DNA of 64,000 nt from a phage: the sequence record PZ583738.1, one strand, 5' to 3'. The first letter of the stretch is position 1. Each line of letters starts with the position of its first letter. The position numbers were made by a program, and so were the translations under genes. The notes under the pieces were generated by a model. That model saw nothing but the letters and a program-made list of their open reading frames with translations, searched no databases and was not told the DNA's origin. Shown in pieces: positions 46,035 to 47,356 of this stretch.

Positions 46035-46460
46035 ATGAACTTTCTGACCCTGACCTCTGCATTCTCTGTTACCCGCATCACTAACAAAATGGTTGCTGAC
46101 GAAGTATGTGAAATCTGCATTCGTGAAGATGCACTTATCCATCTGACTTCAACCCAGATTGTTGCCATTGCCAAGTCTCTTAATTCTGAACTGAAGGTAA
46201 ACACCAAACAGTCAAAAGAATCTATCATTGAATTAATCCAAGCTGAAATGATTGAATTCCCAATTGAAGAAGTTAAAGAAGAAAAAATCCAGTCCAAATC
46301 TGGTAATGCTCGTGACATTTGCTTCCAGGCATTTGCAGAAATTGATATGAATGATAATGCTGCTCGTCGCGCTCTGATTGATGTTCTGGTTACCACCCAT
46401 GATATCAAAAAGACCGTTGTTCAGTCTTATGCTTCCAACTTCCGCAAAGCTCAAAAATAA
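46035..46460 (+). CDS. immediate-early protein with conserved C-terminal module (...AARRALIDVLV...QSYASNFRK)
   Basis: 141 aa; preceded by early promoter plus conserved leader; C-terminal about 50 aa paralogous to ORF 46913-47356. Confidence 0.6.
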   Translation: MNFLTLTSAFSVTRITNKMVADEVCEICIREDALIHLTSTQIVAIAKSLNSELKVNTKQSKESIIELIQAEMIEFPIEEVKEEKIQSKSGNARDICFQAFAEIDMNDNAARRALIDVLVTTHDIKKTVVQSYASNFRKAQK

Positions 46461-46471
46461 TTGAGAAAAGT

Positions 46472-46520
46472 GTTTTACTTCCAGGTGGGATAATGTATAA
46501 TTATCCCATACTGAGTTACC
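46472..46520 (+). promoter_or_regulatory. early promoter / stem-loop cassette (PeSL-like)
   Basis: GTTTTAC, 17 bp spacer, TATAAT inside gggataa...ttatccc inverted repeat. Confidence 0.5.
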
Positions 46521-46542
46521 AAATAAAACACTGGAGAATAAA

Positions 46543-46839
46543 ATGTTTAACGCACCTGCATGGCACGCTACCCAAGCTCAAGAAGAAAACAAAGCAATCA
46601 TTTCTGCTAAAATTGAAGCTCAACTGAATGAATTGTGTGAAACTGCTTCTGAAGAAGTTGTTGCAATCATCAAACAGTATCCTGCATCCAACTACTCCCT
46701 GGCATGCATCAAAACAGAAATGGTTAACTTGTGGCGTAAGAACAAGAAAACTTTCTTGGGTATGCAGTACCAAGCAATCGCGACTGCAGTAGTAAACATG
46801 TATGACTTTGAAGTTTATTTCCCAACTTCTGAAAATTAA
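46543..46839 (+). CDS. hypothetical early protein
   Basis: 98 aa; preceded by early promoter/stem-loop cassette and RBS GGAG. Confidence 0.55.
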   Translation: MFNAPAWHATQAQEENKAIISAKIEAQLNELCETASEEVVAIIKQYPASNYSLACIKTEMVNLWRKNKKTFLGMQYQAIATAVVNMYDFEVYFPTSEN

Positions 46840-46841
46840 TA

Positions 46842-46890
46842 TGTACTTTGAAATTTAACTAAGACATAATGATTCCATACTGAGTTACCA
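46842..46890 (+). promoter_or_regulatory. early promoter plus conserved leader
   Basis: -35-like ATGTAC, CATAAT, leader gattccatactgagttacc. Confidence 0.4.
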
Positions 46891-46912
46891 AATAAACAAA
46901 CGGGATAATAAA

Positions 46913-47356
46913 ATGAAAACTTCAAAACTGGTTAAGTACGTTAAACTGGCATTAAACAACTCTTCTGAAGCTGAAGCACAATCCGCAGCACGTATGTTCT
47001 TCAAACGTCTGACAGCTGAAGGTATTTCATTTAACCCGGCAGTATTTGGTATCACTCGTGGCGAAGCTGCTAAACTGGCAACTCTGGCAGGTAAAATTTT
47101 TAAAGGTCTGAATGATGAGCAGGTTAAACCAGAAGTTAAACCTACTCCTAAAGCTGAACCAAAAGCTGAACGTAAGGCACCTAAACGCTCCGGTATGAGC
47201 AACAAAGATTTGTGCTATGATATGTTCAAAACTGTTAATATGTCTAATGGTGCTGCTCGCAGAGCTGTTATTGATATGATTGTGCGTGAGTTTGGATTCA
47301 ACAAAGCATCAGTTCAGTCTTATGCTTCCAACTTCCGCAAAGAATTTGAAATTTAA
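46913..47356 (+). CDS. immediate-early protein, paralog of 46035-46460, with K/P/E-rich linker
   Basis: 147 aa; linker KPEVKPTPKAEPKAERKAPKR; C-terminus ...GAARRAVIDMIV...QSYASNFRKEFEI; last about 28 nt identical to paralog. Confidence 0.6.
   Translation: MKTSKLVKYVKLALNNSSEAEAQSAARMFFKRLTAEGISFNPAVFGITRGEAAKLATLAGKIFKGLNDEQVKPEVKPTPKAEPKAERKAPKRSGMSNKDLCYDMFKTVNMSNGAARRAVIDMIVREFGFNKASVQSYASNFRKEFEI

What the first reader, a model, noticed from the sequence alone, without database searches (positions are those of the whole stretch)
46035..47356. Paralogous early proteins with conserved C-terminal domain ending QSYASNFRK
ORFs 46035-46460 and 46913-47356 have unrelated N-terminal regions but share a C-terminal roughly 50-aa module (…NDNAARRALIDVLVTTHDIKKTVVQSYASNFRKAQK versus …SNGAARRAVIDMIVREFGFNKASVQSYASNFRKEFEI). 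The last 28 nt of coding sequence (cagtcttatgcttccaacttccgcaaag) are identical, suggesting recent duplication or recombination. The second copy has a lysine/proline-rich linker typical of nucleic-acid-binding proteins.
Basis: seen in the sequence. Interest (0 to 1): 0.5.

Follow-up and report, generated by a model that had tools for sequence, protein, structure and literature searches.

The report
Shared homeodomain-like domain in phage proteins
Two small early genes of a T4-like coliphage share an old, phage-only ~50-residue three-helix domain that looks like a homeodomain-type DNA-binding fold; the domain family has not been described, but it is an ordinary kind of thing and its function is untested.

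Summary
ORF A (46035-46460) and ORF B (46913-47356) have unrelated N-termini and share a C-terminal module (BLASTP 43% over 75 aa, E 8e-18). They also share a 31-nt identical DNA run (46419-46449 = 47312-47342).

The window is a Gaprivervirus-type T4-like phage, in the variable region downstream of the tRNA genes. The module is a real, portable domain found only in virulent phages. It occurs fused to the A-type N-terminus, fused to the B-type N-terminus, or alone (69-74 aa). Only 13 clusters were found among 1.84 billion representative proteins, none in bacterial genomes or plasmids, and there is no Pfam family.

"Recent duplication" is rejected. The A+B pair is adjacent in T4-like phages and in unrelated ~45-kb phages. 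The identical run is specific to this lineage and fits a short gene-conversion tract on top of an invariant peptide.

Interest is low to moderate.

The parts
46035..46460 (+). ORF A (141 aa, phrog_9997): N-terminal strand-plus-helix domain with a helix-extended-helix motif, a short acidic linker, and the C-terminal shared module
46035..46259 (+). A N-terminal domain (aa 1-75): three short strands, then helices 39-49 and 61-74 forming a SAP/Rho-N-like helix-extended-helix (LTSTQIVAIAKSLNSELKVNTKQSKESIIELI)
46305..46457 (+). Shared module in A (aa 91-141): helices 92-100, 108-122 and 126-140
46913..47356 (+). ORF B (147 aa, phrog_18416, pI about 10): helical N-terminal domain, disordered K/P/A/E linker, and the C-terminal shared module
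46913..47107 (+). B N-terminal three-helix domain (aa 1-65), weakly DUF2786-like (KYVKLALNNSSEAEA...)
   Evidence: AF2. Relatives give sub-threshold DUF2786 hits, E 0.04 and 0.16, in register. The domain exists alone as VR7ORF145c.
47108..47197 (+). B linker (aa 66-95): disordered, K/P/A/E-rich, containing two PKAE units (47147-47170)
   Evidence: pLDDT below 50. EAWsc9 has two extra PKAE units. Net charge +3.
47198..47353 (+). Shared module in B (aa 96-147): helices 97-105, 113-127 and 131-145, pLDDT above 90
46419..46449 (+). 31-nt run, copy in A, identical to 47312-47342 (encodes VQSYASNFRK)
47312..47342 (+). 31-nt run, copy in B
45953..46000 (+). Early-promoter cassette of A: -35 GTGTAC, -10 CATAAT, then the invariant box GATTCCATACTGAGTTAC
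46841..46888 (+). Early-promoter cassette of B, with the same -10 and box
46472..46519 (+). Early-promoter cassette of the intervening 98-aa ORF
46543..46839 (+). 98-aa ORFan (phrog_27242) lying between A and B in this phage; absent from this position in EAWsc9 and L002
47363..47414 (+). G5/C5 stem-loop (47363-47380) overlapping the -35 of the next cassette promoter (box ends at 47414); a terminator/promoter composite after B

Best explanation
A and B belong to a small multigene family confined to virulent phages. Gaprivervirus genomes carry three members. All are small, early-transcribed proteins built around one portable C-terminal domain of about 50 residues.

The domain is a three-helix bundle with homeodomain-like helix-turn-helix topology. 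Its third helix (VQSYASN[FY]RK) is essentially invariant, including the exposed polar and basic positions (Q, S, S, N, R, K).

The most likely mechanism is that helix 3 is a recognition helix that docks on a nucleic acid, most probably the DNA major groove. A, B and the stand-alone form would then address the same target. Their different N-terminal parts would add different accessory contacts or partners. A carries an acidic strand-plus-helix-extended-helix domain. B carries a basic DUF2786-like helical domain on a flexible K/P-rich tether.

The duplication is ancient. The 31-nt identity in this phage comes from an invariant peptide plus a short gene-conversion tract (or codon retention) within the Gaprivervirus lineage.

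Shown: homology of the modules, their modular architectures, their phage-restricted distribution, the predicted fold, and the promoters. Inferred: nucleic-acid binding, a shared target, and gene conversion.
For: Homology: BLASTP E 8e-18 and PHROG cross-hits.

Domain status: the module occurs with A-type N-termini, with B-type N-termini, with divergent B-like N-termini, and alone at 69-74 aa.

Conservation: V-Q-S-Y invariant and S, N/D, R nearly invariant across 24 diverse members.

Sequence: three profiles each find homeodomains as the best real PDB hits, always helix 2-3 in the same register. An example is GLKKRVVQVWFQN against GfkKrvVQSYASn, with E 0.0097, 0.13 and 0.41.

Charge: helix 3 is +3 and helices 1-2 are -1.2; B has pI 10.

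Partner domains are nucleic-acid-type, namely a HeH/Rho-N-like motif and a basic tether.

Old pair: A and B are adjacent in Straboviridae and in ~45-kb phages.

Conversion: 10 of 10 identical codons here against 4-6 differences in other genomes; p about 6e-5 to 0.017.

Early expression: sigma-70-type cassettes precede each gene, and equivalent sites are annotated as promoters in MP1.
Against: There is no experimental datum on any family member, and every relative is annotated 'hypothetical'.

Sequence similarity to homeodomains is borderline. No Pfam HTH or homeodomain model is hit even at E 10.

The module is only mildly basic (+3.4, against +8 to +12 for homeodomains). Protein A is acidic overall (pI 5.7), and the Rosemountvirus A-type adds an acidic tail.

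The Asn equivalent to homeodomain N51 is D, S, M or Y in some members.

The AF2 alignments were shallow (16 and 23 sequences).
Confidence: 0.5

Rival explanations
1. The module is a protein-protein interaction domain. Either it binds a conserved host protein (for example RNA polymerase, a sigma factor or a nucleoid protein) as part of host take-over, or it makes A and B pair with each other. Under this reading the homeodomain-like fold is incidental.
For: The family is restricted to virulent phages and is absent from 185,579 species genomes and from plasmids, as expected for take-over genes. Helix 3 is invariant across phages of Escherichia, Morganella, Acinetobacter, Erwinia and Salmonella, which fits a conserved protein target. 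A and B are kept adjacent in three phage groups. The F/Y residue of N[FY]RK agrees between A and B in all 8 genomes that carry both, although both states occur in each phage group. A is acidic overall.
Against: The invariant exposed residues are Q, S, S, N, R and K, a composition typical of nucleic-acid contacts rather than of a hydrophobic protein interface. The best structural and sequence matches are DNA-bound homeodomains and BEN domains. Many phages carry A alone, and VR7 has lost B's module, so obligate A-B pairing is unlikely. The third paralogue in the same genomes has Y where A and B have F.
Confidence: 0.3
2. A and B arose by a recent duplication, or by recent recombination that moved a whole C-terminal segment, and the 28-nt identity is a remnant of that event.
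For: There is a perfect 31-nt identity at the 3' end of both modules. Repeated promoter cassettes around the genes could support recombination.
Against: The rest of the module is about 50% identical in DNA and protein. Both gene types occur as a pair in very different phages. Orthologues of each type keep their own N-termini at 52-65% identity. In other lineages the motif codons differ at 4-6 of 10 positions. At most a tract of about 31 nt is recent.
Confidence: 0.07
3. The 31-nt run is conserved because the nucleotide sequence itself is functional, for example as an RNA element, a protein-binding site or a recombination hot-spot inside both genes.
For: Ten of ten synonymous matches, p 6e-5 to 0.017. 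Almost the same codon string is seen in VR7 A, L002 A and L015 B.
Against: EAWsc9 already carries a synonymous change in A only. L002, L003, L013, L016, RF1 and MP1 differ at many synonymous sites between paralogues. No Rfam family is found. The only hairpin involving the run is specific to A and weak.
Confidence: 0.05
4. The module binds RNA rather than DNA. One candidate target is the conserved 5' leader (AUACUGAGUUAC...) carried by the mRNAs of these same genes, which would give post-transcriptional control.
For: A carries a Rho-N-like motif. All three paralogues, and several neighbouring genes, are transcribed from cassettes whose most conserved part lies downstream of the -10 element, meaning it is in the transcript.
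Against: Homeodomain-like helix-turn-helix domains usually bind duplex DNA. No stable leader structure was seen by eye, and there is no Rfam match. Leader conservation is equally explained by recombination-driven spread of the cassettes.
Confidence: 0.08

Closest known systems
Eukaryotic homeodomains (Pfam PF00046; e.g. engrailed 1du0, ATBF1/ZFHX3 2da3, Lhx4 5hod, LMX1A 8ilw)
   Different: No Pfam homeodomain hit. The hhalign probability is 3%. A replaces F49. The net charge is much lower. There is no conserved basic N-terminal arm. Helix 3 ends the protein instead of continuing as a long basic helix. The family is found only in virulent phages. Homology is not shown; this is a fold and motif analogue.
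BEN domains (e.g. Drosophila Bsg25A/Elba 4x0g, BEND6 7yul, BANP 7yuk)
   Different: BEN domains are about twice as long, so only about half of the domain is matched. Sequence identity is 4-13%. There is no sequence-level hit.
PeSL cassettes of T4-type phages (promoter-early stem-loop; Arbiol et al. 2010, PMC2839356; Comeau et al. 2014, PMC4122927)
   Same: This is the genomic setting, not the proteins. Repeated composite early-promoter motifs flank ORFans in a hyperplastic region. One junction has a G5/C5 stem-loop. ORFan content differs between close relatives exactly at cassette boundaries.
   Different: The -35 is of the T4-early type (GTnTAC), not TTGACA. Only two of the four local junctions have a stem-loop. 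The best-conserved block is -10 to about +14 (GATTCCATACTGAGTTAC), which is not part of the published PeSL description as I read it.
PHROG families phrog_9997 (A), phrog_18416 (B) and phrog_17275 (stand-alone module)
   Same: A and B are full-length members (E 1.5e-71 and 1.6e-91), and both cross-hit all three families through the module.
   Different: All three families are labelled 'unknown function'. They are kept as separate families, so the shared domain is not recorded as such.
SAP / LEM / Rho-N helix-extended-helix motifs (A N-terminus) and DUF2786 (B N-terminus)
   Same: A residues 37-74 have the helix, extended loop, helix pattern and weakly match the Rho N-terminal domain. B-type relatives weakly match DUF2786 positions 3-27, in register.
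   Different: None reaches a curated threshold. These are resemblances only.

Membership tests
Homeodomain (PF00046) / homeodomain-like fold | Three-helix bundle with helix-turn-helix geometry of helices 2 and 3, about 50-60 residues | tested here: met
Homeodomain (PF00046) / homeodomain-like fold | Match to the curated family HMM above the gathering score | tested here: not met
   No Homeodomain or other HTH Pfam hit for A, for B, or for 24 module sequences, even at E up to 10.
Homeodomain (PF00046) / homeodomain-like fold | Significant profile-level sequence similarity | tested here: inconclusive
   The best real PDB hits of three profiles are homeodomains in one register, with E 0.0097-0.41.
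Homeodomain (PF00046) / homeodomain-like fold | Signature residues W48, F49, N51 and R53 in helix 3 | tested here: inconclusive
   The aligned residues are Y (invariant), A/V/M, N (D, S, M or Y in some members) and R (M or K in a few). The pattern is partly kept.
Homeodomain (PF00046) / homeodomain-like fold | Sequence-specific binding of duplex DNA through helix 3 | not testable with these tools
   Needs EMSA, DAP-seq or a complex structure.
PeSL regulatory cassettes (genomic context) | Repeated sigma-70-type early promoter motif in a hyperplastic region | tested here: met
   Five copies in the window, none expected by chance. -35, spacer and -10 were found by the scan and by alignment. There are 10-13 copies per Gaprivervirus genome.
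PeSL regulatory cassettes (genomic context) | Adjacent stem-loop, often polyG/polyC, acting as a terminator | tested here: inconclusive
   A stem-loop is present before A's promoter (45894-45910) and after B (47363-47380, G5/C5). None was found between A and orf98 or between orf98 and B.
PeSL regulatory cassettes (genomic context) | ORFan insertions, deletions or replacements between close relatives located at cassette boundaries | tested here: met
   The window has A-orf98-B-197. EAWsc9 has A-B-(unrelated 101 aa)-197, with chimeric cassette sequences at the junctions. VR7 has lost the 3' part of B.
SAP / Rho-N helix-extended-helix (A N-terminus) | Match to the Rho_N or SAP family model | tested here: not met
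DUF2786 (B N-terminus) | Match to PF10979 above the gathering score (23.9 bits) | tested here: not met
   The best scores are 14.2 and 12.4 bits, in two of nine B-type relatives, in register at positions 3-27. Nothing was found for B itself.
TAL-effector repeats | Tandem 34-residue repeats; significant per-repeat match | tested here: not met
   The hits of profile A5 (E down to 1e-15) are sums of 11-23 repeats, each scoring -3 to +4 bits. They disappear with the broader profile A9. This is an artefact.
PHROG phrog_9997 / phrog_18416 | Full-length match to the family profile | tested here: met
   E 1.5e-71 (A) and 1.6e-91 (B), covering the whole profiles.

The most novel reading that the evidence does not exclude
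The module proteins (A, B and the stand-alone third paralogue) are dedicated regulators of one sub-class of early promoters. Their invariant helix 3 would recognise the invariant box that runs from the -10 element across the start site (ATAATGATTCCATACTGAGTTAC) in the 10-13 cassette promoters per genome. All three paralogues are themselves driven by such cassettes. That would make an autoregulated early regulon, and a possible mechanism for the still-unexplained shut-off of T4-type early promoters. The proteins would also be homeodomain-like factors of virulent phages. Supporting hints: the box is better conserved than the -35 and spacer. Multi-copy box and module co-occur in Gaprivervirus, Gualtarvirus and related contigs. 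The remote third paralogue also sits behind the box. Shared ancestry and cassette recombination would explain all of this equally well.
Probability: 0.07. Interest if true: 0.65.

Novelty: new member of a known kind. Interest (0 to 1): 0.3.

Why it matters
T4-like phages carry hundreds of small early ORFans with no assigned function. Here three separate "unknown" PHROG families turn out to share one portable domain, and that domain is homeodomain-like and probably binds nucleic acid. This gives a concrete, testable handle on a conserved gene pair found in several groups of virulent phages used or proposed for therapy. If the domain binds DNA, these proteins are candidate regulators of host or phage transcription early in infection. 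If instead it binds a host protein, they are candidate take-over factors. The locus is also a clean natural example of promoter-cassette-mediated ORFan shuffling and of possible short-tract gene conversion between old paralogues. None of this changes a general principle, so the value is incremental.

Tried and rejected
- A word-indexed protein search with the two-sequence module alignment found nothing. It was repeated with the full proteins.
- Pfam, NCBIfam and direct PDB sequence searches of A and B gave no usable family.
- TAL-effector hits were rejected as a repeat-summation artefact.
- hhalign of the module against homeodomains was not significant.
- The AFDB fold library was unavailable. 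The BFVD search returned only uncharacterised phage proteins.
- The bacterial and archaeal genome scan and the plasmid search were both negative.
- The unrelated 101-aa ORF of EAWsc9 was tested as a possible homologue of orf98, which would imply a gene-order permutation. It was rejected at E 0.38.
- Rfam found no RNA family in the locus other than the two tRNAs.
- Tandem Repeats Finder did not report the PKAE units.
- A literature search on DUF2786 gave nothing functional. No paper on these proteins was found.
- I considered that the F/Y concordance proves concerted evolution. I rejected it as proof: the Tyr codons differ between paralogues (TAT/TAC), and the third paralogue breaks the pattern.

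Full report
**1. Where the window comes from**

The region 45000-49000 is 94-97% identical to Gaprivervirus genomes, which are T4-like phages of the Straboviridae/Tevenvirinae (TH44, DK-13, VR20, EAWsc9). It lies just downstream of tRNA-Met and tRNA-Arg (44220-44372). This is the variable stretch that GenBank records call the "e-segB intergenic region".

**2. Checking the observation**

- ORF A (46035-46460, 141 aa) and ORF B (46913-47356, 147 aa) are as described.
- BLASTP gives 43% identity over 75 residues, E 8e-18. Each protein is a full-length member of its own PHROG (phrog_9997, phrog_18416). Each also cross-hits the other's family and a third family, phrog_17275, through its C-terminus.
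- The quoted 28-mer occurs exactly twice in the window. The identical run is really 31 nt (46419-46449 = 47312-47342). It is followed by three or four more codons.
- The preceding 108 nt of the module are only 50% identical.

**3. The module is a real, portable domain with a narrow distribution**

Orthologues of A (19 clusters, 51-60% identity) and of B (5 clusters, 52-65%) keep their own N-termini. All end in VQSY[AV]SN[FY]RK.

A profile of the module was scored against 1.84 billion representative proteins. It found only 13 genuine clusters, and these show four architectures:
- the A-type N-terminus plus module;
- the B-type N-terminus plus module;
- a divergent B-like N-terminus plus module;
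- the module alone (69-74 aa).

Distribution:
- By tblastn the module is in Gaprivervirus, Morganella and Providencia T4-likes, Acinetobacter phages 133 and ZZ1, and the 46-kb Erwinia phage RF1.
- The A-type protein extends to ~52-kb Rosemountvirus phages, with a variant helix (VVQSYMSYYRN) and an acidic tail.
- Nothing was found in one genome each of 185,579 bacterial and archaeal species, or in 72,556 plasmids.
- The family therefore appears restricted to virulent phages.

Gaprivervirus genomes hold a third, stand-alone paralogue about 97 kb away, outside this window.

**4. Fold**

AlphaFold2 was run with alignments of 16 and 23 sequences.
- B: a three-helix N-domain, a disordered linker (residues 66-86, pLDDT below 50) and a three-helix C-terminal module (97-105, 113-127, 131-145; pLDDT above 90).
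- A: three short strands, helices that include a helix-extended-helix, then the same three-helix module.

Sequence profiles agree in a borderline way.
- The first profile's top PDB hits were TAL effectors. These are sums of many repeats, each scoring about zero, and they vanish with a broader profile.
- The best real hit is then the ATBF1 homeodomain (E 0.0097), aligned as GLKKRVVQVWFQN against GfkKrvVQSYASn.
- The A-family profile hits only two PDB sequences, both homeodomains, in the same register.
- In that register the module has V45, Y for W48, N51 and R53.
No Pfam model is hit.

I therefore call the module homeodomain-like in fold and helix-3 motif. I do not call it a member of the homeodomain family.

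**5. Likely mechanism**

Points in favour of nucleic-acid binding:
- Helix 3 is invariant at core positions (V, Y, A, F/Y). It is also invariant at the positions that would face a ligand (Q, S, S, N, R, K). That composition is typical of nucleic-acid recognition helices.
- Helix 3 carries about +3 and helices 1-2 about -1.
- B is strongly basic (pI 10).

Points against:
- the domain is only mildly basic;
- A is acidic overall;
- the N51 equivalent varies in some members.

I put about 0.5 on nucleic-acid (mainly DNA) binding through helix 3, and about 0.3 on a protein-binding role.

**6. Age of the pair and the 31-nt identity**

A and B are neighbours in several very different genomes:
- the window, with a 98-aa ORFan between them;
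- EAWsc9;
- a divergent T4-like contig (L002);
- Morganella phage MP1, where B comes first;
- at least five ~45-kb phages of a different type (L003, L013, L016, L023, RF1).

The duplication therefore long predates Gaprivervirus.

The ten motif codons are identical here. They differ at one codon in EAWsc9, at four in L002, and at five or six in the 45-kb phages. Chance identity is about 6e-5 from window codon usage. The internal hypergeometric test gives 0.012-0.017.

A short gene-conversion tract in the Gaprivervirus lineage, on top of an invariant peptide, is the simplest account. A nucleotide-level function is unlikely, because synonymous sites are free elsewhere.

The F/Y residue of N[FY]RK agrees between A and B in all eight genomes that have both, although both states occur in each phage group. 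This hints at concerted change or a shared target. It is not proof, because the codons differ and the third paralogue disagrees.

**7. Setting**

Each gene is preceded by a T4-early-type promoter cassette: -35 GTnTAC, a 17-18 bp spacer, then (C/T)ATAAT. This is followed by an invariant GAT(T/C)CCATACTGAGTTA(C/A).
- There are five copies in the window, at 5143, 45978, 46497, 46866 and 47392; none is expected by chance.
- There are 10-13 copies per Gaprivervirus genome. The cassette also occurs in MP1, in Providencia phages and in T4-like contigs.

Gene content differs between the window and EAWsc9 exactly at the cassette boundaries. A G5/C5 stem-loop overlaps the -35 after B. This matches the published PeSL picture of promoter/terminator cassettes that mediate ORFan shuffling (PMC2839356, PMC4122927). 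The difference is that the best-conserved block here lies from -10 to about +14.

**8. Verdict**

The finding is real, and it is an ordinary kind of thing: an old paralogous pair inside a small phage-only family that shares a helix-turn-helix-like domain. What is new is modest:
- three "unknown" PHROGs are linked by one undescribed domain;
- the domain is homeodomain-like;
- the A+B pair is conserved across phage groups.

Function remains inferred.

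Noticed in passing
window 5143-5165, 45978-46000, 46497-46519, 46866-46888, 47392-47414 (+ strand): An early-promoter cassette whose most conserved block runs from the -10 element across the start site to about +14 ((C/T)ATAATGAT(T/C)CCATACTGAGTTA(C/A)), while the -35 and spacer vary. There are five copies here and 10-13 per Gaprivervirus genome. It also occurs in Morganella MP1, in Providencia phages and in T4-like metagenome contigs. It is unclear why the transcribed part is better conserved than the RNA-polymerase contacts.
   Followed up: partly
window 46543-46839 versus L001 (EAWsc9) 2522-4552: Gene content differs at cassette boundaries. The window has A-orf98-B-197aa. 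EAWsc9 has A-B-(unrelated 101-aa ORF)-197aa, with chimeric promoter/leader sequences at the junctions. This looks like PeSL-type modular shuffling.
   Followed up: partly
L026 2448-2662 (VR26; also L027, L028), outside this window: Gaprivervirus genomes carry a third paralogue that consists of the module alone (71 aa, VVQSYASNYMK). It lies about 97 kb from the A/B locus, behind a promoter and leader almost identical to those of A, although the coding sequences are only about 35-45% identical.
   Followed up: partly
window 47147-47170; L001 3030-3497: The B linker contains PKAE units whose number varies between strains. EAWsc9 B is 155 aa with two extra PKAE units, against 147 aa here. Tandem Repeats Finder did not report them.
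   Followed up: partly
L008 (VR7) 3130-3336: In phage VR7 only the N-terminal domain of B survives as a 68-aa ORF (VR7ORF145c, 93% identical). It is followed directly by e.4, so the linker, the module and several downstream genes are deleted. B's module is therefore dispensable for that phage.
   Followed up: partly
window A/B; L002, L003, L006, L007, L013, L016, L023: The residue after the conserved Asn (N[F/Y]RK) is the same in A and B of each of eight genomes (F/F in three, Y/Y in five). Both states occur within the T4-like group and within the 45-kb group. The Tyr codons differ between paralogues, and the third paralogue does not follow the pattern.
   Followed up: partly
L010 (Salmonella phage SE13) 1906-3555: The Rosemountvirus A-type homologue (gp14, 190 aa, with an acidic EKPETEE tail) is the second gene after an ~850-bp non-coding divergent region. 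That placement suggests an immediate-early position.
   Followed up: no
L009 (Acinetobacter phage 133) 2246-2683; L003 6001-7266: In phage 133 the A-type gene is a lone gene on the opposite strand to all its neighbours, next to the tRNA cluster. In the ~45-kb phages the A and B genes (with 1-4 other small ORFs) form a small opposite-strand island between two leftward blocks. This is consistent with a self-contained cassette.
   Followed up: no
window 5189-5470 (+), next to 5521-7080 (-): A lone 93-aa ORF on the + strand is driven by the same cassette. It sits directly beside the 519-aa ORF on the - strand that reads like a T4-type major capsid protein by eye; I did not test this.
   Followed up: no
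PDB search with profile A5: TAL-effector proteins appeared with E down to 1e-15. This happens because 11-23 repeats, each weakly resembling LvxxhGLxxxxVxxxASN, are summed. The hits vanish with a broader profile. It is a caution for short profiles searched against repeat proteins.
   Followed up: yes
window 45335-45892 and 47463-48056: The neighbours are a DUF7338 protein (E 8e-63), followed by a strong terminator hairpin at 45894-45910, and a 197-aa coiled-coil-like protein (phrog_1203) that one GenBank record notes as an 'uncharacterized protein in e-segB intergenic region'.
   Followed up: no
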